A DNA stretch of 64,000 nucleotides from NCBI GenBank assembly GCA_905178155.1, contig CAJINV010000002.1, positions 10,210,146 to 10,274,145 on the forward strand, read 5' to 3'. The position numbers and the translations under genes are program-made. The notes below the pieces were generated by a model. The model saw nothing but the letters and a program-made list of their open reading frames with translations. It was not told the DNA's origin and ran no database searches. This DNA comes from Amoebophrya sp. A120 (lineage: Eukaryota > Protista > Dinoflagellata). Positions 3,760 through 35,700 of the stretch are shown piece by piece; positions within the stretch are counted from its first letter, which is position 1; the number at the start of each line of letters is the position of its first letter.

Positions 3760-6164
3760 ATGGCTTCGTTTTTCGCGGAGCTGGTGGAGGGCTTTTCGGC
3801 TGATTATGCCCTGAAGCCCGCCGAATTCAAGCAGGCGGAAAGCATCAAGGAGAAGAAGATCAGCTACGGAAGGGTCTCGGAGCTGGTGAGTCAGTTTGAG
3901 GGACTAAAGGGAAAAAGCGGAAAGAGTAGTGGAAGTACATCTTCTCCGACCGGCGACCTTGCACAGCACCCGACTATAGGAGCGACAGCGGTACTACAAC
4001 TGCGGGAGCAAGAGTCCTCCTCCTGCACGGAATCTGCTAGCAGCACTGCAATATCTCACAGAAAAAAGCTGGCAGGGCATATTTGTAATGCAAAAATAAA
4101 TTTAAATACACAGAAAAACCTGTCATGGGCGACCTCGTAGCATGCTATTTCGGGTATGCAATACAAGTTTTTTTGTCTATTTATTTTTGCATTACAGCCA
4201 GCTTTTTTCTCTGGGATATGCAATCGCTCCAATCACCGGAAACATTTCGAGTTCCAGCTCCTCCTCCGGTGAGGAGCAGGGCACCTCGGCCTGGGGCCCA
4301 TCTTCTCGTGGTGCCGAAAACGGAGCGGCTTATCATGCGCAAGTGCATCTTCAACGGCGCCGGGCGCCGACAACTGCCGAACAGGAAGGAGACAATCCCT
4401 TCCTCGATTTTGCTTCGGGACTGTTCAACAGCTTGGTCAGCGGCGACTTTGAGTGGACGGATGGAGGCAGTAGCAGTAACGCGAACAGGAGACAAAGCAG
4501 ACCACCTGAGCAGCACCACGACCAGGGGTCCGCACTTTTCACGAGGGTCGCGACGAGTGACGAACCGATGACCCACACCAGCGCGCCCGCGCCCCACCCG
4601 GACCCGCTGCGAGCGCAAGGTTTATTTCCAATGCCACCGGAGCGACAGCCTGTTGCACAGGAGGAACCAGATGACATAGCGCACCCGGGAGGTGCGCCGG
4701 AACACTTGCAGTCGCCGAAATTATCCCACTCGTCAAGCTCCTCAGCAGCCACGCCGCCACGCACCGACGCAATGATTGCGTCGCCCGCTGCGGGCCGCGC
4801 TACCTCAACGACCTTTTCACCCGACCCGCCGCCGTCGAGCAACAAGAAGCTCCTTTCATCCGCCCCTGCACCGCCTTCAAACTCGCAGTTCGCTGCCGTG
4901 ATGCGGATAGAAAGAGAGTGGTACGAGAAGGGGGATGAGGAAATAAACGCGACCTGCTCCTCCGGCGCAGATGATGGGGTAACCGGAAGTAGTCAGAATA
5001 GGGTATCAGGCTCCTCGTCGACGAACACCGATATTGACGCCCGCCTGGAGAAGTTTCTCGCGCGTTTTGCTGACTACCAGACGGAAATCGTGAAGTTGCC
5101 GTCGGCGGCGTCGTCTTCGGCCGATGTCGGTAAACTAGTTATCCGGATTTGTCGTTTTTGATTCCTTTTTCGTTTCAAAACGGAATATCTCGTGCTGTGG
5201 AGGTTTGAGTGCTCGTAAAAAAATAGCATGATAATTATTCCAAACGAGTAGAAGAACGGAACCTTGTGCATAGATGCTTTTGGCATCATTATGCGTTACG
5301 ACTTCATCTGCACGATCATGAACAACAGGCTCCAGAGGAGGTCTCGTCACTGACCATCGGGCAACTACCGCACCGGCAGCAAACACGTACCGCATCCGCG
5401 GCCGCGACGTGGTGCTCCACTGGAACACGGACAGCTACTTCCTCGAGGTGATTGACGGGCCGATGCGGCAAAATTTGGAAGATTACCTGGTCACAGGTGA
5501 CGTCTCCACCGCACGGTACGACGAGCTTTCCCCGCTGAAGAAGCTGAACAAGTTCACCGACGCCAGTAGCTCCGCGAAAAAGCAGTTTTCCTTCAACGAC
5601 CACGAGTGTTCCTACAACCGCATCGAGGCGATGCGCGTCGCGAAGGAGCAGGCGAAGCTGCGCGCGAAGATGTCGGCATCGAATAGTTACACCGGAGAAA
5701 GCGGGTTGGGAGGCTCGATAAGCACAAGCAGCGTCCAGGCTTTTAGCAGGTATACTGAATTTTTATGCTAGGCGGGATCGATCTGCTTGTGTTCGTGTTG
5801 ACGTGTTATCGGCGCGTACGAAACCATGACAAAGTCATGCAGGGCTACTAGATAAAAACAGCATCAAGTGAATTTATTTACTCATTTCCGCAAACCGTAA
5901 ATAAACTCAAACTCCAGGTATCGTAAATGGCACGAAGCCGCGCTGAAGAAGGAAGCGCCGATCGACGCTTATGGCAATCGTGTGGAGCAATCGACCGGGC
6001 TTTCGTCGTACTTTGGCAGCATGTTTCAAAGTGACGCGGGGAGCAGCATGGTGACCGAAAGAGAGACCGGTATAGAGCGCCAAGGCACCGAGGTAAACAC
6101 AGACCCGGTAATGTACACCCCACCTGTAATGCTGAATCCTTTAGGAAGTTATGCCGCTCTGTAG
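3760..6164 (+). CDS. Hypothetical Ser/Pro-rich protein; exons ~3760-4051, 4224-5129, 5329-5749, 5918-6164
   Basis: ORFs 3760, 4142, 5409 and 5982 join in frame through one TIR-element intron and two GT-AG introns; no confident family (only a faint GAS2/GAR-like segment YRIRG...LEDYL). Confidence 0.7.
4052..4218. mobile_element. Introner-like TIR element, 167 bp (family C), TSD TGCAA
   Basis: TATCTCACAGAAAAAAGCTGGC...GCCAGCTTTTTTCTCTGGGATA plus inner IR TGTAATGCAAAAATAAAT; TGCAA at 4047-4051 and 4219-4223; removal gives ...STAIAPITGN... Confidence 0.9.
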
Positions 6165-9066: not shown

Positions 9067-10572
9067 GTGCGTTATGTTGTTGAGTAGAAATCGAAGTTTG
9101 AGAACAAAGTCAAAATTTGGTCTAGTAGCTGCTCTTTGTAGTAGCCATTTCATAATATCTACCTGGCTTCGCGCTAGAGAATAAGTTAAAGAATTAAGTC
9201 TATGATGCTTCTATCGCTACGGCTGCGTAGGTCAATTAAACGTAAACCAGTATGGTGTTGCAAGCTAATTAAAACTTGATGTAAGATACGGCTGCTGTTG
9301 CTGAGCCATTTGTTGTACTCGTCTATCTTTTTTCTGCATTCCCCTGCCTTGGACTTACAAATTAGTAGCAACAGTACCGTCATGTGACTTCTATCTTCCA
9401 GACAAAACGAAGTCGCTCGTCTTGAAACTCCAATGCACAAATTCTATAGCCATTTTTAGCACCGCTCTAGTTTTTCTTTTCTGAAAACCATGCAGAGTTT
9501 TTGCGCAAGGTAAGTAGCGGATTCCTTGCATTCCTTCGTATCTTTCTCAGACAGCAATCTTTCAGCTTAGACATTGCAATACGAGATTGTAGTTCCCTAA
9601 CATGAGTAGAGACGATGACGAAGAAATTCAAAATGAATACAAAAACGCATGCAGAAACAGCCGTTCCTTGCGGAACTTGAATAAAACCAATCGTGGTTCG
9701 GATTCTGTTCTCCTTGTCTTGTCTTTGGATCCGTGATGTCAAATCAAGTTCATCGTTGTTCATCCATCGTGTAGTTGATGTGGCACCGTGCAGCTACATT
9801 GTTCGTCATGTGTGCACCCTCTTGTTGATATATGTGTCCTCATAGCATTTGTCGGGGAAAGGCAGTCCAGTTTTGGTATTAGCACATAGATTTAGTCGCA
9901 GTCCTTTGTGTTGATTGGTTTCGACGAGCATGAAATACGAAAGCTACCGTGTTAGAATTCTTCCGCAGTCGGTTCACATTCATGAAAAGATCCCAAGAGA
10001 AGAACGCAGGAGACCAGTGCAGGCAGATGCAGATCTTATTTGTTTTGAATTATGCATTGAATATAATCGGTTATCCTCGTATCTTCATTCCCCCAGAGGC
10101 AGGAACCATAACGTCTTCGAATCTACTACGGCGCGATTGTCTCGTGAATTTGTACTACCCCTTTGCCTCTCTCAATGTGAATCTCTCAATCCATATTTTC
10201 TGAGCTCTTTGCTCTTTCTTTTCTACATTGTTTGATTTCCGTGAAGTTAAAGCTATCTTTTGGTTTTTAATACTATCTACCCCGTTTAGTACAGACACAG
10301 CAACTTGAGCTTGTCATTGCCGTGCTTCGAAGATTTTCATTTTCTCCTGGGTGGCCGGTCACTGCTAAAACGGGCGGTGAAACGTCACCCGGTGTGCAGA
10401 TGAGATTCATCTTGTTTGCAGATATTCTTACCTTCAGGATTGCTCAATAGTATGCGAGAGGATTTTTCCCGCTCACCTTAAGAAGCGCACACGTCATTCA
10501 TTTTCTCCTGTGACAAAAACTGAATCGATTGAGGCTGAACTACTTATATCAAAACCCTGGAACTACAACATA

Positions 10573-13500
10573 ATGGCCCCTACCACCCCCGCCCCCTCTC
10601 CACCAGCCAAGTTTTCTTTTTTCGTTGACCGCGGGGGTACGTTCACGGATTTCCTGATTTTGAATCACAAGGACAATTCCCTGGATACGTTGAAACTGTT
10701 GTCCGTTGACCCGAAGAACTACGACGATGCCCCCATCGAGGGCATTCGCCGCACCCTGGACACGCATCCGGATTCAGAGCTGCGGGGGAAACTGCCGCGG
10801 GGCAAAAAGATCCCGCCGAGGTACGTCAACTCGATCCGCATGGGCACCACCGTGGCCACGAACGCGTTGTTGGAAAAGGAGGGGGCGCGGGTGCTGTACA
10901 TAACCACCAAGGGACATGAAGACATGCTCAAGATCGGCAACCAGAGCAGGCCGGACATCTTCGACTTGGAAGTGAAAACGCATGGGATGCTGTACGAGAA
11001 TGTCGTCGGAGTGGACGAACGGGTGGTCGTGGGGAGGGACTCCGTCGATTGTGCGAAGAAGAGGATGTCGGAAACATCGCTGGCACGACGGCGAGGAGCA
11101 GTAGAGGAGGTCAAAGCGGAGAAATCTACAGCAGCCAGCACTGTGGTCTCCGAAGATATTTCTGCACCAGCAGAATCTCTTTCGTCGTCCAGTGAAAAAC
11201 AGCTGCCAATCTTTGTTGAGAAGGCACTGCCGTTGGACCTGGAAGACGGTGACCATCGGAAGTTGGAGTTGCAGAAAGAGTTGGAAAGTAAAATATCGGC
11301 CTTGATGTCTTCCGGCAGAGAAGGTGTCGAGAACATCGAGTCCTCTCAAAAATCTCGTGCTGAGATTGAGAATGACGAGGACGCAGGAACCACAGAAAAT
11401 AACACTACGACTACAAGAATACGAAATAAAGATAAATCACCTGCGCGTGCGGCCTCGACATCCACACCAGCTAGGCCAACCAGCATTGCGATAAACCTGC
11501 TTCATTCGTACCTGTACCCGAAGCACGAGAAAAGGCTCGCCGCGTATTTGAAAAAAAATCTGAAACAGAAGTTCATTTCAACTTCCTCGCAACTGTGTCC
11601 GATGAAGAAAGCCGTGCCCCGAGGCTTCACAACCTGCGTAGATGCCTACTTGACGCCGAAAATCCTCGAGTACGTAGAGCAGTTTTGCGACGGGTTCGAC
11701 AAGCAGAACGGGCACGAGTTCCGCGAATTCTACGAGAAGAAGCTGCTGTTCATGCAGTCCGACGGGGGACTCACAAACATCGACAATTTCACCGGTTTTC
11801 GCGCCATCGTCTCCGGCCCGGCGGGCGGATGCGTGGGCTTCTCGCGGACGACACCGAGATTTCAGTTCAGGAGGGACAGCGACCACGACGGCGACGAGGA
11901 GCCTCAAAAAACTCAGGACGATGTGTTGCTGAAAAAAGAAAAATCTGCCCCTCCTCTTGAAAATAACCGCCGGCTCTACCTCCCTATCATCGGTTTCGAC
12001 ATGGGCGGGACTTCTACCGACGTGTCCCGGTTCGATCCGAATAACGGAGAAAACAACTTCGACCAAGTGCTGGAAACCACCATTGCCGGGTACACCATCC
12101 AGGCCCCGCAGCTGGACATCAACACGGTTGCGGCGGGCGGTGGCAGCCGCCTCTGGTTCCGGAACAACATCATGGATGTGGGCCCCGAATCCGCGAAGGC
12201 GCACCCGGGACCGGTCTGCTACAAAAAGCACGGCTACCTCGCGGTCACCGACGCCAACGTAATTCTCGGCCGGGTGTTGCCGATGTACTTTCCGAAAATC
12301 TTCGGGGAAAAGGAGAACGAGGCACTGGACAGGGAGCTCGCGTATGGAGAGCTCGAGAAAATGATAATGATTTCTTCCGGTAATAAGGAGAAACAATCAT
12401 CTATTTCCGCGTACCCCGTCGAGGACGCGGCCGCGGGGTTTCTGAAGATCGCGAACGAGAAGATGTGTCGCCCGATTCGGGAGCTCGCGGAATCGCGGGG
12501 TTTCGACGTTAAAGCGCACGTGCTTGCCTGTTTCGGCGGGGCGGGCCCGCAGCACGTGTGTCAGATCGCGAAGCAGCTTGGCATCGAGAAGGCCTTCGTA
12601 CACAAGCACTCCGGGATTCTGTCCGCGTACGGGATGGGCTTGGCGGACGTCAGCAAGGAGTTTTCGATCGCAGCGGCGACTGTCGAGGGTCTGGATTGCG
12701 TCCTGAAAAAGCAGCCTGGTGATTTTTCCTCCTCGTTGCCGTCGAGAAATCTGCGTGAAAAAAGCAGACCCGCGACACGTGCGACTACTACTCACCACGA
12801 TGCCCCCTATGCGCAGCAAGTCAGCCTCTTTGAGAAAACCTTCGAGCAGCTGGAGCGACAATGCCGCCAGGTGTTGCGCGAAGCGGGATTTGAAAAGGAC
12901 GAAGATTGCCTGTTCCAGTTTTACCTGCACTTGCGCTACCGGGGGAACGACAACCTGCTGATGGTAGAAGCAACTGCACCAGCAGCACCAGGACTGGACA
13001 GAGCTTCGGAGACCATAAACTTGAGTAGCTCGAAAAAATCTTCACCGCGGCCCTGGCTCTTCGATTTCCACGGAGCCTTCAAGCGGTTATTTGCGCAGAC
13101 CTATGGTTTCGCGCTGGCCGACACGCGCGAAATTCTTGTCGAGGATTTCCGCGTCAAGGGAACGGGCAGGATTCAGGACAAGATACTGGTAAGGAAGGAG
13201 GACGCAGCTCATGCTTCCTCGAAAAATAAGGCCGACGTCGAGGATACACTAACGGAACGGAAACAAAACAAGCCTTCATCTTCTCCGAAGCGCATGAAAA
13301 CTGTGAAACAAGAACAACACGACGATCCGTTTCCGCAGCGCAGACACGCCCGCTGTGCCGCGGTCCACAAAATGTACGATGCGGAGGGGAGAAAGTACGT
13401 CAGTGCGCCGGTATTCTTCGTTTCACCGCCCAAGGAAAATCCTCTTGCGACCGGCAGAAACACGACGGGCTTCTTGGGAGAAGTATCTGCACACATGGAC

Positions 13501-16500
13501 ACAGAGCAACCAATTACTGTGTCATCGGACAGAACGGTCGTGACATTTGCTTCTGAAAAGGAGAAATTGATGAAGAATCCGAATCTTCTGTTGGACGAGC
13601 TTCATGCGTCGGGAAGAAGATCGAGTGATACTCATCTGCTTAGTTCCTCCTCGACAAAAACTCCAACTCTTCAGCCGGGCGACCTCATAGCGGGTCCCGC
13701 TTGGATCCTCGATGCTACGACCACGTGCGTCGTCGACGCCGGCTGCTTCGCCAGGATAAACGCCGAGTCGAGCATCGAACTCACGATTCCCCGAGCGGTG
13801 GACTCCACAATCACCCCTGCGGAGCTGAGCAGCTTGCAGACGCTTTCCACCGACTGCGGGAAGAGTATATTGGCATGGGGGGACGACGTCTTGCAGGATC
13901 AGAGGGGAAGGGAAGTGACGGAACAAATAAGCAAGCCAGATGCAGCACCAGCCGCTGGTGCGCGAGAAACAGTGTTGTCAGAGCGTGAACGAGTACAACC
14001 ACTTGGTTGTATGCAAGTAGTACGAACAAAGGAGAAGGCTTCTAAATCACCGCCAACAGCTGCAAAAAGTAGTGAGACACCTTCACCCACTCATGTACTG
14101 CGCCCGGACTCCGCCACCCTCTCAGTTTACGGACACCAATTTATGTCGATTGCGGAGCAGTGTGGTCGGGTGCTGCAACGAACGGCGGTGTCGGTGAACA
14201 TCAAGGAGCGTTTGGATTTCTCGTGTGCGATCTTCGATAAGGACGGGAACCTGGTTGCCAACGCGCCCCACGTGCCCGTGCATTTAGGTGCCATGGCGGA
14301 GACCATTAAGGCGCAGATTTTGCTGCGAAAAAGAGAGCTCGAGGAGTATGCGCGCAACGGTGCGACCACTAGTACCAGCACAGCAGGAGCACCAGAAGGT
14401 CGTTCTACTGCAACAGAATCAGCAGCTGCGGCAAGAAGCAATATTGGGAGCTGCAAAATAAAACCCGACAAGGATAGCACCTTCGCGTGGGTAACCAACG
14501 ACCCCTTTCTCGGTGGTAGCCACTTGCCGGACGTAACGGTGATCACGCCGGTATTTGAGGACGAGGAAACAACAAGCGGTACAACGCGTGAGCATCAAGA
14601 GGCCGAAGTACGAGCACTGTCAACAACAAGAAGTGCGAACGAAAAGGAAGACGCACGAACTTTGGTGAACACACCACGAGCTACAAAACCACATCGTGAA
14701 CTCCTCTTCTTCGTTGCGTGCCGGGGCCACCACGCGGACATCGGGGGCATTACCGCGGGTTCGATGCCCGCGAGGTCTACCAAGATAACGGAGGAGGGGG
14801 CGCTAATCACCTCTGAATTTTTGGTGAAGGGGAACGAATTTCAGGAGCAGAAAATGCGGGCGCTGTTCCGCGAATCCCGCAACCTGGACGACGTCATTTC
14901 CGACCTGAAGGCGCAGGTCGCAGCCAACTTCAGGGGGAAGGGCCTGTTGCTGAGTCTGCTGCGGCAGAACGGGCGGGACACCGTGCTGGCGTATATGAAA
15001 CATGTGCAGCAGTGGGCCAAGGGAGCGGTGCAGCAGATGTTGAAGCAGTTGTGCTCACAGTACGGCAAGAACGAGTTTTCCGCGGAGGAATACATGGACT
15101 GTGGAACGAAAATCCAGTTGAAAATCACCATGGAGGAGAGGAATCGCGAGGTGCATGGTGGTGATGAAGCTGGTTGTGGTTCAGCTTCTCCTTATGAAAA
15201 GATAGCCTCTGTTTATCACAGGGTTAAGCGCTTCATTCTTAAAAAATTCATTTGTCAAAAAAAAAATTTTTTTTAGTAAGGTTTGATGCACAGGAAGCTT
15301 CGCCTTTTCCACGACACCGGTTCCGCAGTTGTGACGAATCCACGGGGCAGATGTACTCCAGGAGAACGGCAGGATGGTTTGTTGATTTTTATGAATGATA
15401 ATACTAACTAGAATGGAGGCACAGCTAGCTAGATAATTCAATAGCATTCAAAAGATGTAAATGAAGGATCAACTCAGCAAACGAGACAGGAAGAACGTGG
15501 CTGTCAGGCAGCTGATGGTCAACGGGGAATCGTGGCTGTGTCTGCGCGTTCCCATTTACTGGAGATACCGGGGCATTCGTGGTGGAGCACAGCTGCTTCG
15601 CCACGATGTAAGTCCGTGGATTCGGGCGAATCCACGGACTTACATCGTGGCGAAGCAGCTGTGCTCCACCACGAATGCCCCTTTGCAGCGTCTGCCGGAG
15701 ATCCACAAGCTCCAATCCGTTTACCGGCCGTCGACTCCGCAGCTCCAGTCGCAGTTGTACACCAGAGCTTACAAAAGGGGTCCGCTATTTCTATTCAAAA
15801 TCAGTGATGTTATTTAATCTAACTAGCTGTGCCTCCATTCTAGTTATTTTACACTTTCATATCAACCAGCAGCAAGGTTCAGTCGTCGTTCCACTGGTCC
15901 AGGAGGTGCAGGTACCGCAATCGCCGTCGTCGACACGTAGCAGATGATGCTGTAAACAACACCATCAAACCTCACTAAAAAAAATTTTTTTTTTGACAAA
16001 TGAATTTTTTAAGAATGAATCATTTAGCCCTGTGATACTGTTGCACCTCCCGGAGACGCGAGCGAAAAGCACGACACCGCGACTTCCAATCACGCACTAC
16101 CAAGCCCAAGAACAGGAAGTCCGCAGCGCAAGGACCTGCAACTTCTTCCCGCCGCGAAGAGACGCAAAGTTAGTCAGGGGTCCCCTGCTGGTGTCGAAAA
16201 GCAGGACCAGAGTCGTGGAGGTCAGGATTTTTTCCAAGCGGTTTTTGATTTCACCGGCACAGGTCCGGAGCGCCCCGACTCGAACATCAACGCGCCGTCG
16301 GCAATCACTTCGGCCGCGATTATGTACTGTCTCCGGTCCCTCGTGAAGCAGGACATACCGCTGAATTCCGGGTGCCTGCTCCCGGTGAAAATTCTTCTGC
16401 CGGAGAAGTCCCTGCTCAACCCGAGCAACAATCTGGCGGTGTGCGCTGGGAACGTCACCACCTCCATGCGCATCGTGGACGTGATTTTGAAAGCGTTTCT

Positions 16501-22849: not shown

Positions 22850-24215
22850 ACCTACATGATTCCAATCCCGATCACAATATCCACGAAAATCAAATTGGAG
22901 AATCCAATCCGATCATGATTTGGTCATTCTTCCATCCTCAATCGAATTTGATTTCTTTGTCAGAATTCATCGACAAAAAAGACATTGCAATTTTTGTCAT
23001 TTTCACGATTCTGTTGGTTTCTTTATTGAAAATTCTGAAGTCTGGATTGATGTGGGATCCCAAAAAATTCTTTTCATAGATAAGGATAATCTGATGTGAA
23101 TATATTATCGTATCTTTCCCAAAAAAAAAACCAAAGTTTTTGTTTCTCATAAAATTTGCATGATTCTGTATTAATTTGGAAAAATTTGAGAGAATAATTT
23201 GGTGATCGGGATCTGGATCGATTGATGAATGTCAGGACAGGAATAAATCTCGATAATAAGCATAGTTCTAGAATAATTTTGGGAAAATTTTCCATGATAA
23301 TTTAATGGATTTTATCTGGATTGATTTCGGAAGATGAAGATGAAGAGTGGGGTAAGAAATGCTGATGAGTTGTGGTCATCTCATTTCTCATTCATCCGGT
23401 CGGGTGCAGGGATGATTAATGGGATGGAAGAAGAAAAGCAAGATCCGATCGATCAATTGGCTCAGATTCTATCCCATTAATCAGGCATCCGATCGGATGG
23501 ATGAGAAATTAATAGGACACCCACAACTCATTGGAATTTGTTATCCCACTGAAATTTTTAATATTTATTTCTTGGAAGATTAAATAAGAGATTTGGGGAA
23601 ATTTCTGCAAAAGATAATAAATTTGTTAGGAATAAATTTGAAGATTTATTCTATGTGTCATATTACATTATTGAGATCGAATCGAGAAATGAAGAAGAAT
23701 TACCGGATCAAAGATTGAAACGAAACAATAAATTTTTCAGAAATCGATGAAAATATTCGAGAAATAGGATTCCTATCATTTTTCGGAATCAATCTATAGA
23801 AAATTTTACAGAATTTCAATCGAATGAACTAAATAACAATCTGATCGATCCACGAACACACAGATGAAAAAAAAAAAAATTATCGACCAATCTCGAAAAA
23901 TTTCAGAGAAAACAGGACATTGAATTTTTTTTGGAAGAATCAGAGAGAGAAGAAATCATTTTTCCAACAATCAATTTCATATCGAATCATTTCCTCATCG
24001 ATCTGAGAAATATCCTAAGAAACATAGGAAGAATCCTTTTTTTTTTCAAATCGAATTGATTCATCCATGGATATATGTAATTTTCTCTTTGTATTTCTGA
24101 GAAATGATGATGATAATTCAGAAATCATGATTCGATTTGAATATGCCTGATTTTGATTCGCAAAAATGAATCATGATGGTATCCATGGATGTGGATTTTT
24201 CCTTAAATTCTAAGG
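22850..24215. other. AT-rich, GAT/ATC-rich non-coding block with an internal imperfect inverted repeat (~23346-23426 / ~23471-23550)
   Basis: Abrupt compositional shift and no credible ORF; GATGAGTTGTGG/CCACAACTCAT and TGATTAATGGGAT/ATCCCATTAATCA pair. Confidence 0.6.
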
Positions 24216-24433: not shown

Positions 24434-26083
24434 CTACAGAAAGGATGCATTCGGGTCTAGTTGCAGCGCGTGTTGGAGGCTCAAAGCAGCTTCTTTCATC
24501 CCTTTTTTCGATTCCTCGACCTGTGTGAAAAAATCTTCGGCTTCAACGTCTGGACGCCGGTACCTATTTCTGTACTCGTCTAGGGGAGCAAGATCTGCGT
24601 CTTCGCTAAGTTTTTCTTTCGAAACCGTGCGACTTTCGAGCGCCTTTTGAATTTCCATTTGGGCGTGCTCTAGGTTGCCGCGATTCTCAGTTGTGAAGGT
24701 ACGCATTTCTGCCAGAGCGCGCTGCAGTACTTCGGCGTTGTGGTTCTTCGCGACCTCGTATCAACATGAAAAGCGTCCTCATCCTGGATCCAATCAAAGT
24801 TTGCGTGGCTGATATTAATGCATCAAGGGTCTGCGTTCATGTCTTAATTTGCAATGCTTCGCAGGGCAATAAACAGGTTGTCACCCGGAGCCGCGCCCTG
24901 CGGGGCTTTTGCTAAAAAACGCCTAAAAATTTTACGGGTCGCGCCAAAAGCCGGGACCCAGGCAGCCGGATCACCACATGGCGAGAGCGGCCACAAAGTT
25001 GGCCTCAGGGCGCGCCTACCCGCCCGGGGGTCGGCATCGAAGCAGAACGACGGCCGCTATCCGGCAAAGGCCAAGCGGGCAGGCACGCCCGCCCCGGACA
25101 AAGAGGTGGGCGCGGCACCGGACACAATTAGCGAAATCCGCGGCCGCCTTGAAGGGGGAAAAGGCAACACACCCCGCCAAGGGTCAGGGCGGTGTTCCGG
25201 GGCGTGGTCCACGCGAACGCGCCATCCTTCACCCGGGCCTCGCGAAATTAAGAGTCGGGGAAAAATAAGACGGCGCCAAGGAGCCGGGCCGCGGGCCCTT
25301 GAGGCCGCCTATTCGCCCCACTATCGGCGGGCTTATTTTCACGGCCCGAAAGTTGGCGGGCGCCTTTTTTGCGATTTCGTGTGCGATTTCAGTGTGCAAA
25401 AAAATAAAAGAAAAAATAAGCAAAAAAATAAGACCCCCCGGCCCGTGGCCGGGCGCGCAATAGGTGGGGGAATAAGAGAAAAAATAAGCGTTATTTTAGG
25501 CGAAAAAAATAAAAGAAAAAAATAAGACTTAAAAATAAGAAACAAAAGTAAGACCAAAAAGTAAGACCAAAAAATAAAACCAAAAAGTAAGACCAAAAAG
25601 TAAGACCAAAAAATAAGACCAAAAAGTAAGACCGAAAAGTAAGACCAAAAAGTAAGACCAAAAAGTAAGACGCAAAAACGGGCCAAAAAAATAAGAGCTT
25701 GGGCGCGGCCCTTAATTAGAGCGCAGCAAAGGTCTCGCGCACAAGGATGACACCCCGCCAGCTTTCTCCCAATTCCGGAAGTGCCTCAGGTGGGCGGCCG
25801 CAATGCAGCAGAGACCCGCGAAGAGCAAAAGGGGGCGAAGCCAGAAGCGAAAGCCTGTGCCGGAAAGGGCGAAGGCCATAAATTTTTTAGGCTTTAAATA
25901 GGGCCGCCACCGCAAGGCGCGGCGCAGGGTGAAGGTTGTTTCTTATTTTGGTATCATGCTTCATCTACCTGGGGAGGACTTCTCTTTTCAGGATGGTAAC
26001 TCGTATGCGGCTAGGTGCTGATCCAGACTCTTCGCTGCTTCTTCCACGACGACGCGCGCAGACGACGCAAGAGAGGTGCTCAT
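24434..26083 (-). CDS. Hypothetical ~134-aa helical protein split by a 1245-nt non-canonical intron
   Basis: MSTSLASSARVVVEEAAKSLDQHLAAYE joins in frame to (V/F)AKNHNAEVLQRALAEMRTFTTENR... once 24759-25998 plus 5 bp is removed. Confidence 0.7.
24759..25998. mobile_element. 1240-bp introner-like element with GC-rich cargo and a tandem array; TSD CCTCG/ACTCG
   Basis: Left end TATCAACATGAAAAGCGTCCTC; reverse complement of right end TACCATCCTGAAAAGAGAAGTCCTC; 4/5 TSD; removal restores the host frame. Confidence 0.75.
25517..25671. repeat. Tandem repeat, 13-bp unit AAAAAGTAAGACC, about 12 copies
   Basis: Directly visible array. Confidence 0.9.
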
Positions 26084-26567: not shown

Positions 26568-28736
26568 TCATTTTTTCTGTCGTTTTTGTTCGTGGGCAAG
26601 GCCTCCATCCCCGTTTTTCAGATACTTTTCCCACTTCTTGTGATTTAAGAACTTGAAGCTGGGCAGGTCCTTGATCTTCAGCAGGTAGTCTTTCAGTTTC
26701 AGCAGCTCAGTGTCGGTCCTCCCGTCTGTGAGTGCGTTCTTGAAGGGCCGGATCTTGAGTCCTTGCTGGGGGTTCAGCAGAAAATTCCGGCCCAAATCGT
26801 CAAACATGATCGTGTTCTCGGGATTGAAGTTTGCGCCGTAGTTCATCTGCTTGGCGTAGCGCCAAATCACCTCCAAAGGCTTGACTTTCACCACCGTTTG
26901 CTTTTTCGCGGACCAGGTGCTGATCATGGCCCGCGCGTCGAGCACGATGCAAAGGTTGAACGCGGTCGCTGGGGCGGCCAGAATTTCCAGCTGCTGCAGC
27001 TTCAAATCGATCCACTGCTTCCCGGTCGCGGACCAGATATGCTACGGAAAAACTACGCCATCAACTCCCTACGTGGTCTCAAGGTGCTAATATAATCATG
27101 TGAGTATTGAGCAAAATCTTATACAAAATTGTTCCAGCATAATTGCCTCGGTCTTTCTTATAGTTCTTTACTCCCTCACACTTACTTCACGCATTGAGAT
27201 GAAGAAATAGGCGACTCATTTCCGTTGGATACCAAATGCCAATGTCGTAATGCGGGTACACGGCGGTGAGGAACTCCATGAGGTACGGTCGGCGAAGCTG
27301 CAGCGCACTTTCTGCCGGGGTGCGGTGGTCGAAAAAGGTGTAGTCAATGTCGAGCATGAGCAGCTTCTTCCCCGGCCGCGGCGGGTTCACGATTTCGATG
27401 TAGTCCTTGCCGCGCGCCACGCGCTTGGCAATCTTGGCGTCGTCGGTTTCTGACAACACCGGTTGAAACACCGTGGACGAGCTGTAGTTGTTATTTGCCT
27501 CGTCGTCAAAGTCGTCGTCCTCGAAATCGTCCAGCGTGTCGGGGTATGCAGCGGGCAAGAGTACTCATACGTATTGACGATACGCGTTTTTGATAGGATC
27601 ATACGCACGACATCGGAAGACTTGTTCTCCGCTTTCAGAATCACAAGGCCACGAGACAGATTTAGAAATAGTGAAGTAGAGTAGAACGCTGTAAATATTA
27701 AACGATGTCTCATCTCTGGCTGGCAAGCTTCCTTCGTGGTGCAAAAAGACCACGACTCAAAACCGCATATGATCGTCGTGCCAAGGACTTTTGCGCAGGA
27801 TACGGTGGAACTGGCCAGGTCGTTAAACACGTCCATCATGGCATTGATCTCTGTTTCCGGCGACCCTAGAAGCATGACCGGAGAGCTCGGGTTTAGGATC
27901 TTCGCCCCCGCTGCAGTTTCTCCTCCTGGTGTTCCATCGGTTTTCATCTCTTCTTTCGGAACCAAGCTGAGGAAGTAGACCGCCAGTGATAGCGGTTTCT
28001 TCCGTGGACCGCTTTGCAGGGAGGCCGCCGGTTCGAGCTCCTCCTCCTTGATCGTTTTACCCTTGTACACGAGTTTCTGGCGGTGCGGCAGAATCTCGGT
28101 GAGGGAAAAGTATTACAGTGAAAAATGCCCCCCACCCCTGAAATTGCAAAAATTTGTGATGCGAAGTTTCCAAATGAAAACTTTTTGTCATGCATGAAAG
28201 GAGTATGAATCTTTCTGTTGCAGAGTCTAGGCGTGTATCGCATCGCTTGCATGACAAGCGCCGCTTTTGCTGGGGTCTTTTGCAAGACAAATTCTTGCTA
28301 TTCACGATTGGAAACTTGTGATGCTGATAGATGCAAGAGGGCGAAGGAATGTTTCATTTGGAAAGGTTTGCAATACAACTGCTCCCAAGTTCGGGGGTGG
28401 GGGCATTTTTCCTTTTGATAAAAAGAGCTCGTGCTTCAGCTCCTCCACCATGTAAACATGGAGGTCGTGCCCGATTTCGATGTCATAGACCTCTTTTTTC
28501 CATTTTACCTGCAGGATGAAGCTCTGCTGCTGTTTCTGCTGGGTTGAAACATCGGGATCTGATGTCGGCGCTCCAGTAGAGAGATCAATTTTATTTCCCT
28601 CCACTATCTGGGCGGGCGTAGGCTCGCTCGAGGACACGGACATTTCCTTGGAATCTTTTGTTACGTCGGCTGCTCGCGGGAGCTCGGCTGCAGCGGGTTG
28701 CGTCACTTCGGCCTGGTCCGTTGGCAGCATCGGCAT
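26568..28736 (-). CDS. UBLCP1: Ubiquitin-like domain-containing CTD phosphatase 1
   Basis: UBL segment (LQVKWKKEVYDI...ELFSLTEILPHRQKLVYKG) plus FCP/HAD motifs LDIDYTFFDHR, RPYLMEFL, YDIGIWSAT and NTIMFDDLGRNFLLNPQQGLKIRPFK; three non-canonical introns. Confidence 0.92.
27038..27231. mobile_element. Introner-like element, 194 bp, TSD CCAGA/CCAAA
   Basis: Ends TATGCTACGGAAAAA and (rc) TATCCAACGGAAATG; removal with 5 bp rebuilds the conserved DIGIWSATG. Confidence 0.8.
28111..28420. mobile_element. Introner-like element, 310 bp (family D), TSD AAAAG
   Basis: TATTACAGTGAAAAATGCCCCC... and (rc) TATCAAAAGGAAAAATGCCCCC...; perfect TSD; removal gives ELFSLTEILP. Confidence 0.9.
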
Positions 28737-29712: not shown

Positions 29713-32700
29713 TCATTCGTCTTTACGCCTCGTGGCTGTGCGGCGGACGAAAGAGATGTGTCCACGCGTTATCAAATGTAAAAATGTCTGGGTCTGGAAG
29801 AGTGTTATACTGTTTTTGCATGACACAGAATGTCTGTCATGGAAGCCCTAGCATCACAGATCTTTAGAGGCCTTCCTGATACCTATTCCGCATGACAAAT
29901 GCCCTCCACGAGTAGCACAAACCGGACTCCTTTTGCTGGTCATGCAATACAGAATTTTTTAGAGTCCAAAGTTAGCATCACATCGTCGATCGATTGTGCC
30001 ACTAGGGCCTTGTGTTCCGGCTACTCCGGATCGCAATCGATGGAGGGCGGGACCTGCACCGGCGACAGGCGCCACCCAACCAACCAACCAACCACAAGTT
30101 CCAACCTTCCAGACCCAGACACTTTTGCAATCCATACGCGTGTCCCCGATCGCCAGGACCGTTTCCATCGCGTTCACAGCCAGGCACAGGGCGTAGCTGT
30201 CTACCTTACTCGGAAGCGCATCCGGGACGTTATCGTGCACTCCAGCTCCTTCGTGTAGCTCGTCCCTTGTTGCAGGCTCCTCCTCTACTGGCGTGCATGC
30301 TGCCGTCGTCAGACAAGCAGGGGAGAGTACTATTGTAGTTGTGGTCTTCTGTTCATCTTCACCCAATAATTTGTTTCGGCTGCTGATGTTGTAATTTTGC
30401 CCTTCCTTCCCTTTCGAAAAATGATCATTCGCGTGTTGAGTCGTGAATCCTTCATCGGTGCATTGTTCCGCCGGCGCGTTCGCCCTACTCACGATCTCTC
30501 CGTCATCATCAACCGGCGAGAGCAGACGTTCTTGCGGCGAGGGACGCTGCACGACCTTCGCCTCCATCGAGCTGGAGGTGCTTCTACTGCTGCAGCTTAG
30601 ACTTTCGCGCGCGTCATCGCGGTGACCAGTCGGTACACTGTCTTCTGTGCGGCGTCGCGCTGGTGATCTTTCGTCGTGTTCTCGTTCCTGATTGTCGACG
30701 GCGGAACTTTTCTCATACGCAAGCAACCGGGTCGCTGAGGAAGCAGCGGCAGCACCAGACAAGCCATTATTGTTTTGGTGACATAACTGGGTCGCAGAAG
30801 ACGACTTGTTTTGCTCATGTAGCACCATCGCACTTTTTTTCCCTGCTACCACAGACGAAGGCTCGTCCTCATTTTTAGCGCAAAGATTACTGTTATCAAA
30901 TGTAAAAATGTCTGGGTCTGGAAGGGTTGGAACTTGTGATGCAAACTCTGGAACACACAAAAATTTGTGTTGCATGAGCGCCAAAAGCTGTCCACTTCTT
31001 GGCACGCAAGTAGGAAGTTTCTCATGCGGGAGAGGCATCATGAGGCGTGCTCAAAACCTGTGATGCTTTTGCCTGCATCAGACGCCATTTTTTTGCGTGA
31101 TCCGAAATATGCATGAGAAATCTCGCAATCTTCCAGACCCAGACATTTTTACATTTGATAACTGTGCACATCGGACGACCCCATCGTCAAGTCGTGCACG
31201 ACCACCGTGCCCGTGTGCTCCTCCGTGCCTGTGACGGCGAAGTACTCGCAACAAAACGTGCTCATCAGGGGGAGGTACTGGTTGGGAGTGACGATTGTGT
31301 AGAGCAAATTAAGCATCAGTAGGGTATTGTGCTTGAACACCAATTCGATAATGCCCACTGCGTCCACACCGAGCGCGTTCACCAAGCAGAGCTGGGAAAA
31401 GGCCGCGGTGTTGTAGCTGCCCATATTACAACCTCCGCCCATCGCTGTCGCGAAAGAACTGGCGTTCGCGCTCGTCAAGCCGCCTGTTGCAGCGGTTGCG
31501 TTTATCGACGCTGCGGAGGCGTACGTAGCCGAGCCGTTTGTATTCCCAGCCGCGGCCGAGGATGCGACTGCGCTCTTCCGCGGCTGCAGGCTCAGACTGG
31601 TGATGGGGTTTTTCGCACCCGCATACTGCAGGGTAGACAGCAGCGGCCTCAGACGGATTTTGCTTGTCGTGATCGAAGTCGCCGTTGCAAAGGTGCGACC
31701 ACGCGCCGGACTGGAAATGCAGCTTGTAGCGTAGTGATTTCCCTTGCTCGAAATGCTCCTGGTTGCAGCTGCCGACCCGGATCGCTGCACGTTCGTAGTA
31801 TGTGCTCTACTGCTACTCGTCGTGGAATTCACCTTACTTGCCGTGGGCGTTGCGGCGGAGGAGGCCGCTGGGCCGCCCGTGCCTATGCCACTGGCTTCCC
31901 ACGCTTCCACTACGTAGATGCACCCGTTTCCGGCGCCGCAGAGGCCAAACCTGCCCGTCTCATCAAACGCCAGGCATCGGATCTCGGCATCCATCTTCAG
32001 TTTCTGAGCCACCTTGTGGTCCTTCGTGGTGATCAATCGCAGCGCTGGCGCGGTGGTGGCGTAGATAAGGTAGCGAGCAGAAGTCGCAGTAGACACGACT
32101 GGGGCTCCTGACAAAGAAGGATTACTGTAGAAATTTACAATGGGCTCAATGTAACAGGCGCAGCTGATGGCGTGCTTGTCCTCGTAGCAAACCAGCAGTT
32201 CCCCCGTTTCGACGTCCCACAACTTTGCTTCGCCGGACAGTGAAGCGGAAAACAGCTGCAGCTTCGGAAAACTGGTACTCGTCTTCGAGGCATGAGGATC
32301 CTGCCTCTGCTCGATACTATTATTTCTTCTCTGGCCGGCCCTTTTTCGACCGCTCCTTCCGGAGACCAGGGACTGTTGTTGCGAGACTGTTGATGCAGGT
32401 GAAGATTCTTGGTAGAGCAAACACAAAGCTGTCACAAGCTGCCCCGCAGTGTGGCCTTGCCACTGCCGTACGAGCGAGGGCCTCATTGCATCCTTGTTTA
32501 TTTCCGCGGTTCTTCCACCGACTTCGGTTGAGCTCACCGACCCTTTTGCTTCGCTGTCCGCCTCAGTATCGCTCCCGCCTGGCGCCCCGTCCGAGATGTC
32601 ACCTGCACCACCAGATCGTTCCTCATCTTGCCCACTGGCTTCAGAAGTTCGCAAGATCTTCTGCTGCTTTCGCTCCAGCTCCGTCCAGGGCAGGTGATAG

Positions 32701-35700
32701 ATAAACAGCTCTCCCTGATCGTTGGCCGCCGCGAGCACGGTTTTTCCTGTTTCCATTCGGTTTCGTTCCCCGTTCATCTTGTTCAACCCCTTCAATCTCT
32801 GCTGCTCATCTCGTCGCTCGTTTTCCCCGCTCCTGTTTCGCGATGCAGGCGCGAAAGAAGAGCAACTGTGGAGAGGTCCGTATTCATTCGTTTTCATTTC
32901 CGGCTGGAAGCACAGCAGTACCAAGGGGTGAGTTCCAGTTTCTTCTTCCGCTTTGATCGCGTAGTCCGCTCCCACGTTCGCCAGGTGCTTGCTCTTTCGC
33001 TCCCGAATGTCCAAAACCCTCGGGGACACGTTGTATTCCTCAAGCGAAGGCTTCAGAAACTGCCGCTGTTCCATCTCTATCCAGGTGCGCCGGTACTGTC
33101 GTAGTGTTTGCTGCTGCTGCTGCTGCTGTCGAAAGGAACCTACACCAAGCGCGGTTAACGATGAGGAGAAACCTACGTTTTCAAGGTCCGGTGAGCTGCT
33201 CGAGAAGTCTTTCTCGGCAGGAACACTTCTACGACCAGGTGGACTGTTGAAATTTTCGAAGCTTCTCCTCCTGCTTTCAGTCTCGCCGCTTGTTTTGCTG
33301 GGATGAGCACCCGGTTTGTTTGGTGGCATCGCAACAAGTTGTCCATCCGCTGGCCCGGTGTCGGACACAGGCGTGGTCATCGGCACCGCAGCTGGGGCGT
33401 CTTCCGCAACGGAGAAAGTTGACGATTTGCTAGGCACCTGCGAGTGCCCCATACCATGCGGACGCATTGCAGGCATTGTAGGGGAGGATGAAGAGGAAGT
33501 GCTATTGCTTGCGGCCTCGCGAAGATACTGACGCGCAGGAGAACCGCCCGTGCCATTTTTGGCCGCTGCTCGGCCGGCATAGTCATCGACTCCATTCGCG
33601 TCTGCAACAGGTTCCTCGTGAAAAAAGTCGAAGTCCCTGGTCAGCATGCGGAACGCCTCTGCTAGACTGGTCGCTTCCACACTGAGACAGCCCAACGCCG
33701 CGGCCTTGGACTTTGCTTCGAACAGGTTGACGCAGCTTTTTCTTCGGATTTTCTTGGAAAAGGAATTATTGTTCTGACCGCTAGTACATAGATGTCCTCC
33801 CGCCTCCCCCCGATGGTTCGAGTCCACGAAGCCCTCCAGGTTTCCAAACAAGAGCCCGTGGCACTTTTTCTGTTTCGCCAACTCCAGTCTCTCCAGTGCG
33901 GTGTCTAAACTTTGCTGGTTTTCAAAGTCATAGTATTCTATGTAAAAACGTCCCCACCCCATAGTCAAGATGGGGTCTCGGCTAGACAAATCCACAAGCT
34001 TTGGCTGTTTTGCATGACAGATCTCAGCTTGTAGTGTAGTGCTGTTTGAGCTATTTCGGCAGCATCACAGATCTAGTGCATCATGCTGATTGGAGCATGG
34101 CAAATTCCAAAACACGACTGGAAAACCCTTCTCATGGGGCTCCGCATGAGAAACATTTTCAGCATGCAGACCTGCATGACAACTCTGGGGTGGGGACGTT
34201 TTTACACAGGATACATAGATGGCGATCACGTACTGGCAGTGGCTCATCTTCGTATCGAGCTCCTGCAAGCTGCAGTCCAGGACGCGCAAATACTTGGCTT
34301 TATGCTGCTGCTGCTTCGAAGGCGAAGACGTGGCGGCCGCGGAAGAGGAAGTACTATTGAAGCCTAAGTTTGCGCTGTTCGTAATTTTGCTTGACGAGAA
34401 GGTCCCGCCGCCCACCAGCGTGTTTATGTTTGTCTCGGGCACGGCAATTTCGTAGTAGCAGGAGTCTGCGTGGTCGCCGATGAAGTTGCAATTGCGTCTT
34501 CGACTGGATGAGGAAACGATTGGCTGCTGAATGACTTTTCGTTTCGTCCCGTTCACTCTACTCCGGCTGGACGAGGCCGATTGCTTGATGTTGCTGTTCA
34601 TCCCATTGTTCAACATTTTGCCCCCGGCGCGATTTTTATTGACATTGTGGTGTGTGGACGAGGGGCCGCTGGTTGCCATCTGCATTTTCTCTTCGATCCT
34701 CTGTCGGTTGTACTGGAAAAGCGCATACTGGTCTGGCGCCAGGTCTCGAATGCACCGCTCAAGCAGCGCCAGTTTCCCGACGTTTTCGCCGACAATGAGC
34801 ACATCCAACATCGCATCCGGCTTCAACAGGTTCTTCACGCTGCTGCGCATCGTCATCTGCGGACTTCGAGCGAAATTCGTAGTACCAGGGCAGGAATTTC
34901 CATCTTGGTCCTCAGTGGTCGCAAGTTGATCTTGCGCCGCATGGCGCGGTGTGCCGCGGACGTATTCGAAGTTATTTTCCTCCACGTCTTCGACACCAGC
35001 CTCAAGTGCAGGAACATCTTCCTCGACAGCTCTTATTCCTCCAGCTTTACGATGACAATTATCCGATTCTTCTTTATCGCCTTTAGCACCGTCGGGTCCA
35101 CCGCGCTCGAGCGACACAAGATGTTTCACCTCGGGGTATCTTTCCAGCGACTGCAAGACCGCGTTGCGCAGCAGCTTACACTGGAACGCGTCCAGCTTGA
35201 GCTGCATCTGGTGGAAGTTCTCCACCTGGGCCTGGAATTTCGCGACGGCGCGGTTCTTCTCCGTTTCCATCTGCAGCTTCAAGAGCGTTTGCTCCTTTTC
35301 CGTCCGCTGCGCCTCCAGGAGCTGCTTGTCCTTTTCCTTCATTTTCTCGTCCGCGGTCCGCACGCCTTCCAATAATCTTTCCTTCTCGGCCAGCCATTCC
35401 TGTTGCTTCACCTGCATCTCCAGGTGCACGACCTCCGCTTTCTCCTGCGCAATGGTCGCGTTCTTCGTGGCCTCCTCGAGCTGCTGCATGTAGTTCTCCT
35501 CTAAACGTCTCGTCGTTTCCTCCTCCTTCTGTTTTACCGCCCGCTCCATCTCCTGCTCCAAATTCCGAACCGCTTCCTCGGAGCCGAGCAGCGTCTGCTT
35601 GAGCTCTTCGATGGATATTTCCTTCGCTTTCAGCTCCTGATCAAATTTATGCTGCTGCTGCAGTTGTTCGGTTTCGTGTTTCTCTTTCAAATCGTGCACG

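What the first reader, a model, noticed from the sequence alone, without database searches (positions are those of the whole stretch)
15209..16042. Exactly mirror-symmetric 824-bp element: three nested stems separated by unrelated spacers of matched length
Seen: the outer 75-bp TIR (15214-15288 / 15963-16037, about 5 mismatches, no indels), the ~30-bp inner IR (starts 15405 / ends 15846) and the perfect 55-bp central hairpin (15570-15624 / 15627-15681) share one axis, since paired coordinates always sum to 31251. The GC-rich spacers between them show no recognisable complementarity yet keep the same length on both sides. Block centres are spaced roughly 170-205 bp apart. Inference: a rod-like RNA/ssDNA fold-back with symmetric internal loops under selection for geometry, or a head-to-head dimer whose nucleosome-sized cores diverged or were swapped. 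The spacers could be captured cargo. The element interrupts an otherwise intact 5-oxoprolinase.
Basis: partly seen in the sequence, partly recalled or inferred. Interest (0 to 1): 0.85.

Follow-up and report, generated by a model that had tools for sequence, protein, structure and literature searches.

The report
Triple-stem mirror intron in marine parasite
An 824-base transposon-like insert in a gene of the marine parasite Amoebophrya is likely cut out cleanly as an intron, a known habit of this organism, but it carries three paired stretches centred on exactly one axis, likely the remains of two long mirror-image arms.

Summary
The geometry is real. Stems of 75 bp (70 paired), 30 bp (29 paired) and 55 bp (perfect) share one axis; the spacers pair only at chance level. 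Contigs of a DNA run cover both spacer arms at single-copy depth, and the hairpin tip, so a fold-back artefact is unlikely.

The host is Amoebophrya sp. A120. The element has TA..TA ends and a 5-bp target duplication. Two runs guessed to be RNA skip exactly 829 nt, and the deposited protein reads through the junction. It is therefore a non-canonical intron of the TIR-introner kind described in this species, and the 5-oxoprolinase is not broken. No second copy was seen.

The inner symmetry is unexplained. Chance placement gives 25 in 2,000,000, and none of 12 other inverted-repeat elements in the window keeps register deeper than 84 bp. Best reading, about 45%: two long arms fused head to head, blocks refreshed by arm-to-arm copying, spacers decayed at fixed length. 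Nested insertion lacks target duplications; captured host exons are not supported. Known kind, unusual variant, one example.

The parts
15209..15213 (+). left target-site duplication (5 bp)
   Evidence: identical to 16038-16042; the joint can slide over 5 letters
15214..15288 (+). left terminal inverted repeat, 75 bp, AT-rich, starts TAT
   Evidence: 70 of 75 paired with 15963-16037; longest perfect run 46 bp
15289..15379 (.). outer left spacer, 91 bp, 57% GC; holds an 11-mer (15335-15345) equal to the tip-proximal 11 nt of the right hairpin arm, and a weak 15-bp motif at 15347
   Evidence: 12 of 91 paired with its mirror
15380..15434 (+). middle stem, left arm: core 15405-15434 plus a decayed outer part 15380-15404
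   Evidence: 29 of 30 and 15 of 25 paired
15435..15569 (.). inner left spacer, 135 bp, AT-rich next to the middle stem, then GC-rich
   Evidence: 42 of 135 paired with its mirror, P=0.08
15570..15681 (.). central perfect hairpin: 55-bp arms 15570-15624 and 15627-15681, 2-nt loop
   Evidence: 55 of 55; 55-nt arm contig and 62-nt tip-spanning contig in run X1
15682..15816 (.). inner right spacer, 135 bp; weak motif copy at 15751
15817..15871 (-). middle stem, right arm (core 15817-15846)
15872..15962 (.). outer right spacer, 91 bp, 56% GC
15963..16037 (-). right terminal inverted repeat, 75 bp
16038..16042 (+). right target-site duplication (5 bp)
10381..15213 (+). open frame upstream of the element: 5-oxoprolinase coding sequence (stop-to-stop frame start given; the true start codon was not determined)
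   Evidence: stop-to-stop frame 10381-15276; the last 20 codons before the element match deposited protein P0001
16043..17212 (+). downstream exon of 5-oxoprolinase (Hydantoinase_B/oxoprolinase domain)
   Evidence: Pfam PF02538, E 2.9e-90; 100% identical to P0001 of Amoebophrya sp. A120

Best explanation
This is a transposon-like insert with terminal inverted repeats and a 5-bp target duplication in the 5-oxoprolinase gene of Amoebophrya sp. A120, likely removed exactly from the RNA as a non-canonical intron, whose three co-axial stems are likely the remains of two long (about 411-bp) mirror-image arms fused head to head. Shown: the ends, the duplication, the exact 829-nt skip, the read-through protein, the symmetry. 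Inferred, about 90%: it arrived by cut-and-paste transposition driven by an enzyme encoded elsewhere, and the 75-bp terminal stem brings the exon ends together for splicing, as proposed for this species' introners. Inferred, about 45%: the interior began as one arm copied in mirror image. Three blocks were then kept alike by arm-to-arm copying (template switching or conversion), while the stretches between them drifted to randomness with their length held fixed, most likely because a protein dimer acting on both arms needs its sites at equal distances from the ends. The 2-nt loop would be the point where the two arms were joined.
For: Intron identity: joint 15208->16038 skipping 829 nt in X3 and X6, absent from X1; P0001 runs across the junction; none of the 6 possible cuts is GT-AG; 10 of 13 inverted-repeat elements examined in the window have TA..TA ends and a perfect 5-bp duplication; this matches PMC7789003 section 11. 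Long-arm origin: the middle stem fades outward (15 of 25, P=0.003); both arms turn AT-rich just inside it; the window holds intermediates, with a second on-axis stem in 3 of 12 other elements (23346, 24881, 28111); pooled over 10 elements, register persists 33-60 bp from the ends (rank 1 of 25 offsets); Dataset S2 of PMC12130899 marks A120 families fam14 and fam15 'palindromic'; arm homogenisation by template switching is documented (PMC8604942), as is TIR extension in Galileo (PMC3573991); the innermost stem, whose arms are closest, is the perfect one.
Against: The spacers keep no trace of complementarity in four orientations, gapped or not, yet show no net indel, while 3 moderately diverged elements in the window already show shifted stems (4052: +10, +16; 23346: -4; 28111: +1). 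Register is not kept at 61-110 bp in the other elements (rank 23 of 25), so neutral decay alone does not explain it, and the length constraint is assumed, not shown. The terminal and central stems end abruptly. Arm-to-arm homogenisation in the 260-bp family was not significant (702 of 10,000 pairings), nor was the mirrored GC profile of the spacers (rho 0.39, P=0.16). The three blocks share only a weak likeness (middle vs central stem P=0.0065, one of 42 tests). X3 and X6 are RNA by the tool's guess only.
Confidence: 0.45

Rival explanations
1. Fixed-geometry scaffold with exchangeable spacers: the element belongs to a family in which the three blocks are constant and the 91- and 135-bp stretches are swapped or captured at set lengths by a protein ruler, or by in-register conversion from paralogues.
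For: Explains in one step the abrupt stem edges, zero residual pairing and zero indels. Weak same-sense likeness among the GC-rich parts (7 of 42 pair tests at P<0.03, best 0.002; a 14-16-bp motif at P<0.05 in 17 of 18 settings) could mean they come from one pool.
Against: No other copy of any block among the contigs of DNA run X1 laid at 85% (6 laid, all 99% or more alike, none running on unlike), in the window, in metagenome contigs or viral contigs. No source for a spacer was found. The motif is not significant at k=12 (0 of 6 settings) and the best pair test does not survive correction for 42 tests.
Confidence: 0.2
2. Russian-doll insertion: a 112-bp palindromic element inserted at the exact centre of a 380-bp one, which inserted at the exact centre of a 332-bp one, by a process that targets the symmetry axis.
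For: The shell sizes resemble A120 families in Dataset S2 of PMC12130899: about 305-340 bp with TIRs of 75-98 bp (fam53, fam50, fam160), 386 bp (fam23) and 106 bp palindromic (fam14). Nested insertion is common among transposons (own knowledge).
Against: No on-axis direct repeat of 4 bp or more at the outer border of either inner stem; the central stem does not start with TA; no other copy of the inner blocks; two exact-centre hits need an unknown targeting rule (25 of 2,000,000 by chance). Size resemblance is weak where family sizes are so varied.
Confidence: 0.15
3. The symmetry is selected at the RNA level: the intron folds as a rod needed for splicing without U1, or the 55-bp hairpin feeds a small-RNA pathway.
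For: All three stems form in the predicted fold, z -17.5; U1 snRNA was not detected in A120 (PMC7789003 section 10); a perfect 55-bp duplex is a plausible Dicer substrate (own knowledge).
Against: The spacers fold as branched or open loops, not as symmetric internal loops. Other elements of the same kind have only a terminal stem. All 10 Rfam matches are below the gathering score. It may explain why stems persist, but not the base-exact register.
Confidence: 0.12
4. The inner stems arose independently by template switching in an ordinary interior and share the axis by chance, or the structure is an assembly artefact.
For: Template switching can create perfect hairpins in one step (listings of PMC5453318 and 10.1101/2023.04.19.537475); the genome has some 66,000 introns, so rare coincidences occur; X1 may be the source of the assembly; no contig spans the whole element.
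Against: 25 of 2,000,000 for position alone, before the rarity of having two inner stems at all. X1 contigs join each spacer to its stems at depth 45-49, equal to the flanks (41-43), and a separate contig spans the tip.
Confidence: 0.08

Closest known systems
Amoebophrya A120 introner elements, singleton class (Farhat et al. 2021, PMC7789003; passages and sections 10-11 read)
   Same: Non-canonical intron with terminal inverted repeats starting TAT, a 3-5-nt direct repeat over the exon borders, no transposase, same organism.
   Different: The terminal repeat is 75 bp (8-20-nt motifs described); the A-run after TAT+7 is displaced; length 829 nt against a 240-nt mean for A120 non-canonical introns; two further co-axial stems, which the passages and sections read do not describe.
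A120 introner families fam38 and fam196 (Gozashti et al. 2025, PMC12130899; passages and 56 of 58 A120 rows of Dataset S2 read)
   Same: About 810 bp with TIRs of 49-57 bp; fam38 is noted as 5-bp TSD with TA/TA termini, as here.
   Different: These have 5 and 4 copies, and fam38 has Copia/Gypsy-like reading frames; here one copy was seen and no protein match was found. Their sequences and figures were not available, so kinship is untested.
Whole-length palindromic introners (A120 fam14, fam15 in the same dataset) and long-TIR fold-back elements such as Galileo 2-TIR copies (PMC3573991, passages)
   Same: Non-autonomous elements made largely of two mirror arms.
   Different: Here only 160-185 of 411 positions lie in stems; the rest is unrelated yet in exact register.
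IR/DR Tc1-like ends (Bari, Sleeping Beauty; PMC4120734 section 3 read; conserved spacing with diverged spacers in Bari1 is recalled, not read)
   Same: Several blocks per end at matched distances from the termini.
   Different: There the blocks are short repeats of one transposase site; here they are 30-75 bp, mostly unlike each other, and the target duplication is 5 bp.
Hairpin-telomere resolution sites such as N15 telRL (PMC13236599, passages; flanking nested repeats recalled, not read)
   Same: A long perfect central palindrome on a symmetry axis.
   Different: No resolvase was looked for or found; this element has a target duplication and behaves as an intron. An architectural likeness only.

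Membership tests
Amoebophrya A120 introner element (Farhat 2021) | removed from the transcript as an intron | tested here: met
   exact 829-nt skip in X3 and X6, which are RNA by the tool's guess; deposited protein reads through
Amoebophrya A120 introner element (Farhat 2021) | non-canonical splice sites | tested here: met
   0 of 6 possible cuts is GT-AG
Amoebophrya A120 introner element (Farhat 2021) | inverted repeat joining the two intron ends | tested here: met
   70 of 75 paired; longer than the 8-20 nt described
Amoebophrya A120 introner element (Farhat 2021) | 3-5-nt direct repeat over the exon/intron borders | tested here: met
   5 of 5
Amoebophrya A120 introner element (Farhat 2021) | A120 family motif: TAT, seven bases, then three or more A | tested here: inconclusive
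   TAT start on both arms; the A-run is two bases late on the right arm and only two A long on the left
Amoebophrya A120 introner, repeated family | several copies in the genome | tested here: not met
   no other-locus contig laid from DNA run X1 at 85%; sensitivity was not controlled, so diverged copies are not excluded; filed as singleton class, not as a family member
A120 fam38-type TIR element (Gozashti 2025) | 5-bp TSD and TA/TA termini | tested here: met
   description
A120 fam38-type TIR element (Gozashti 2025) | reading frames with Copia/Gypsy-like homology | tested here: not met
   0 Pfam families for 7 of 7 frames scanned; no relative for the two frames searched; RepBase was not available
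A120 fam38-type TIR element (Gozashti 2025) | sequence similarity to the family consensus | not testable with these tools
   a 10-nt end motif was not found in the 12 of 14 supplement files searched; consensus sequences not seen
IR/DR Tc1-like transposon ends | the same binding motif repeated in each block of an end | tested here: inconclusive
   middle vs central stem P=0.0065 uncorrected; terminal vs central stem not significant
Nested transposon insertion | target duplications at the inner element borders | tested here: not met
Pack-type element carrying host exon fragments | interior derived from host coding sequence | tested here: not met
   best-frame codon scores -3.6 to -0.3, against a 10th percentile of 0.6 for 184 coding 91-mers; no partial donor contig
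microRNA / siRNA precursor | match to a curated family, or small-RNA reads from the stem | tested here: inconclusive
   all 10 Rfam matches are below gathering; no small-RNA data available

The most novel reading that the evidence does not exclude
The element is the first seen member of a class of introner whose skeleton (75-bp end, 30-55-bp middle block, 55-bp central hairpin) is fixed while 91- and 135-bp modules are loaded or exchanged at set lengths by a protein ruler. Such a process could also generate part of the roughly 25,000 mutually unrelated 'singleton' TIR introns of A120.
Probability: 0.12. Interest if true: 0.82.

Novelty: new variant of a known kind. Interest (0 to 1): 0.42.

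Why it matters
How Amoebophrya's TIR introns move, diversify and get spliced without a detected U1 is an open question (PMC7789003). This copy shows that an 829-nt, strongly structured element is still removed to the base. Its base-exact inner register is also a measurable trace of whatever process builds these elements. A genome-wide count of stem offsets would tell decay of long arms from a length-measuring mechanism. On its own it is a single odd intron in a genome with tens of thousands of related ones.

Tried and rejected

Spacers as inverted, direct, reversed or complemented copies of their mirrors: not significant, apart from a weak same-sense score for the outer pair (local P=0.04, global P=0.12). 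The below-chance pairing of the outer spacers (12 of 91) is not meaningful: neighbouring offsets range from 12 to 33. A hint of 3-base periodicity there led to a codon-model test, which was negative (the 184 coding controls were part of the training set, which favours them).

Reading frames of 118-120 codons across the hairpin: no Pfam family, no word-sharing candidate of 64-207 residues, 0 phmmer hits among 1.84 billion representatives. Exact-motif scans: 0 in metagenome contigs, 0 in viral contigs. Phage blastn: 5 short matches, E 0.06-0.7, taken as chance. Rfam: shape matches only.

No RNA holder was listed on record; raw-read run X9 laid 0 reads, which is no test. Only 4 of the 11 listed runs were laid. 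The planned control was not obtained: whether X3 and X6 lack intergenic DNA, and whether multi-copy introners show up as partial contigs, stay open.

Earlier findings of this scan: nothing by sequence or place; two unrelated bacterial notes by words. Literature searches for this layout: 'nested inverted repeats' + transposon + symmetric + spacer gave 1 software paper; 'internal inverted repeats', MITE, equidistant, foldback gave 0; introner/dinoflagellate/hairpin/nested gave nothing on it among the 20 of 42 listed.

Full report
1. Observation. The repeat finder and an ungapped mirror comparison confirm three stems on the axis 31251: 15214-15288/15963-16037 (70 of 75), 15405-15434/15817-15846 (29 of 30) and 15570-15624/15627-15681 (55 of 55, 2-nt loop). 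The middle stem fades outward to 15380/15871 (15 of 25, P=0.003). The spacers are then 91+91 and 135+135 bp and pair at 12 of 91 and 42 of 135, against 23 and 34 expected. No orientation aligns them convincingly. Equal spacer length and a common axis are the same fact. Uniform placement of the two inner stems puts both on the axis in 25 of 2,000,000 trials. A 5-bp duplication flanks TA..TA ends.

2. Artefact check. Contigs of run X1 cover all 30 bins. Two contigs run from the terminal repeat through both spacers and the middle stem into the hairpin at depth 45 and 49, like the flanks (43 and 41). A 55-nt contig is the collapsed arm and a 62-nt contig spans the tip. All 6 records laid are 99% or more alike, and none runs on into unlike sequence. 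This argues against a fold-back artefact and for a single copy. Limits: X1 may be the assembly's own source, no contig spans the whole element, some records are filtered out, and the sensitivity to diverged copies was not controlled.

3. What it is. The downstream exon is 100% identical to a protein of Amoebophrya sp. A120, with A25 next at 61%, and carries the oxoprolinase domain. Skipping the element plus one duplication copy (829 nt) restores the frame, and the deposited protein reads straight across that junction. Runs X3 and X6 show the joint 15208->16038 with zero depth inside the element; X1 does not. These runs are RNA by the tool's guess. In favour: X3-X5 hold 0.68-0.70 of the sampled words against 0.71 expected for a spliced transcript, X3 totals 41 million letters against 105 for X1, and its flanks show no differing letters. 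None of the 6 possible cuts is GT-AG. Of 13 inverted-repeat elements examined in the window, 10 have TA..TA ends and a perfect 5-bp duplication; for 7 of 11 tested, skipping them leaves a frame open across the whole 160-codon test stretch (no null computed). Farhat et al. describe this in A120: non-canonical introns with terminal inverted repeats starting TAT, 3-5-nt direct repeats, 29,850 repeated and 24,976 singleton elements, and no U1 detected (PMC7789003, sections 10 and 11 read whole; passages). Gozashti et al. list A120 families of about 810 bp with TIRs of 49-57 bp, one noted as 5-bp TSD with TA/TA termini, and families marked palindromic (PMC12130899, passages; 56 of 58 A120 rows of Dataset S2). 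So the gene is likely intact and the element works like a singleton A120 introner.

4. What is unusual. Three of the 12 other elements have a second on-axis stem, but none deeper than 84 bp from the end; here the inner stems begin 192 and 357 bp in. Pooled over the TSD-flanked elements, register holds at 33-60 bp (rank 1 of 25 offsets, 10 elements) and is lost at 61-110 bp (rank 23 of 25, 9 elements; one was too short). Deep exact register is therefore not the general rule here.

5. Mechanism. Insertion by a transposase encoded elsewhere and hairpin-assisted splicing are inferred from the ends and from the papers above (about 90%). For the interior I favour two long mirror arms fused at the 2-nt loop, with three blocks refreshed by arm-to-arm copying and spacers decayed at fixed length (about 45%). 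For it: the fading edge of the middle stem, the AT-rich zone just inside it on both arms, the intermediates in the window, palindromic families in A120, and documented arm homogenisation and TIR extension (PMC8604942 and PMC3573991, passages). Against it: no residual pairing together with no net indel; shifted stems in three less diverged neighbours; abrupt edges of two stems; and two tests that did not reach significance (arm-to-arm likeness, 702 of 10,000; mirrored GC, P=0.16). The length constraint is assumed, by analogy with IR/DR transposon ends (PMC4120734 section 3; the spacing detail is recalled). Rivals: a fixed scaffold with exchangeable spacers (20%), nested insertion at the centre (15%; no target duplication at the inner borders), selection on RNA shape or small RNA (12%), chance or artefact (8%).

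6. Spacers. They score like introner interiors, not like host exons, and no source was found. There is a weak internal signal: 7 of 42 pairwise tests reach P<0.03, an 11-mer in the outer left spacer equals the tip-proximal end of the hairpin arm, and a 14-16-bp motif recurs at 15347, 15655 and 15751 (P<0.05 in 17 of 18 settings at k=14-16, in 0 of 6 at k=12; 150 shuffles). None of this is corrected for multiple testing; it is a lead only.

7. Novelty. The kind is known. I did not find this layout described in searches, in the parts of the two A120 papers that I read, or in passages of the Roy et al. preprint. The library lacks most subscription papers, figures are not held, the first supplement search left out 2 of 14 files, and the supplement of PMC9860276 was cut when stored; any of these could hold a description or the family sequences. 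Internally symmetrical fungal introns exist but lack target duplications (PMC8469720, abstract only).

8. Verdict. A real, likely spliced, apparently single-copy introner with a base-exact inner symmetry that no test here explains. New variant of a known kind; interest 0.42. It would rise to about 0.8 if a genome-wide scan showed a fixed scaffold with exchangeable spacers.

Noticed in passing
window 29770-30136, 30894-31160, 38617-38876, 44998-45247, 52272-52535, 58644-58905: Six related elements of 250-367 bp with a shared 31-bp terminal repeat and 5-bp duplications (one imperfect). In 52272 and 38617 the two arms match each other out to 58 and 48 bp while differing between copies, which suggests arm-to-arm copying; the test over all six gave P=0.07.
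   Followed up: partly
window 33934-34213 and 44691-44970: A second family: two 280-bp elements, 88% alike, in opposite orientation, each with a perfect 5-bp duplication.
   Followed up: partly
window 28111-28420: A 310-bp TSD-flanked element with a second 13-bp stem on its own axis, 57-69 bp from the end: a small version of the same layout.
   Followed up: partly
window 23346-23550: A 205-bp near-whole-length palindrome without TA..TA ends or a detected duplication; stems at offsets 0, -4, 0.
   Followed up: no
window 24881-25932: A 1052-bp stretch with about 70 bp of degenerate inverted ends, a GC-rich left half and a tandem array near 25400-25700; no duplication was found by the TA-anchored test.
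   Followed up: no
window 4052-4218: A 167-bp TSD-flanked element whose three stems step off the axis (0, +10, +16), showing that indels do accumulate between arms.
   Followed up: partly
window 15405-15431 and 15820-15846: Each arm of the middle stem is itself a 7-bp inverted pair around 13 bases, so the two cores can also be read as direct repeats with the 13 bases flipped (seen in the sequence).
   Followed up: no
window 15595-15656: Short-read depth falls to 8 across the hairpin tip against about 45 elsewhere, as expected for a perfect hairpin.
   Followed up: no
window 16227: One contig of run X6 carries a one-base insertion in the downstream exon at depth 4.5; it may be an error.
   Followed up: no
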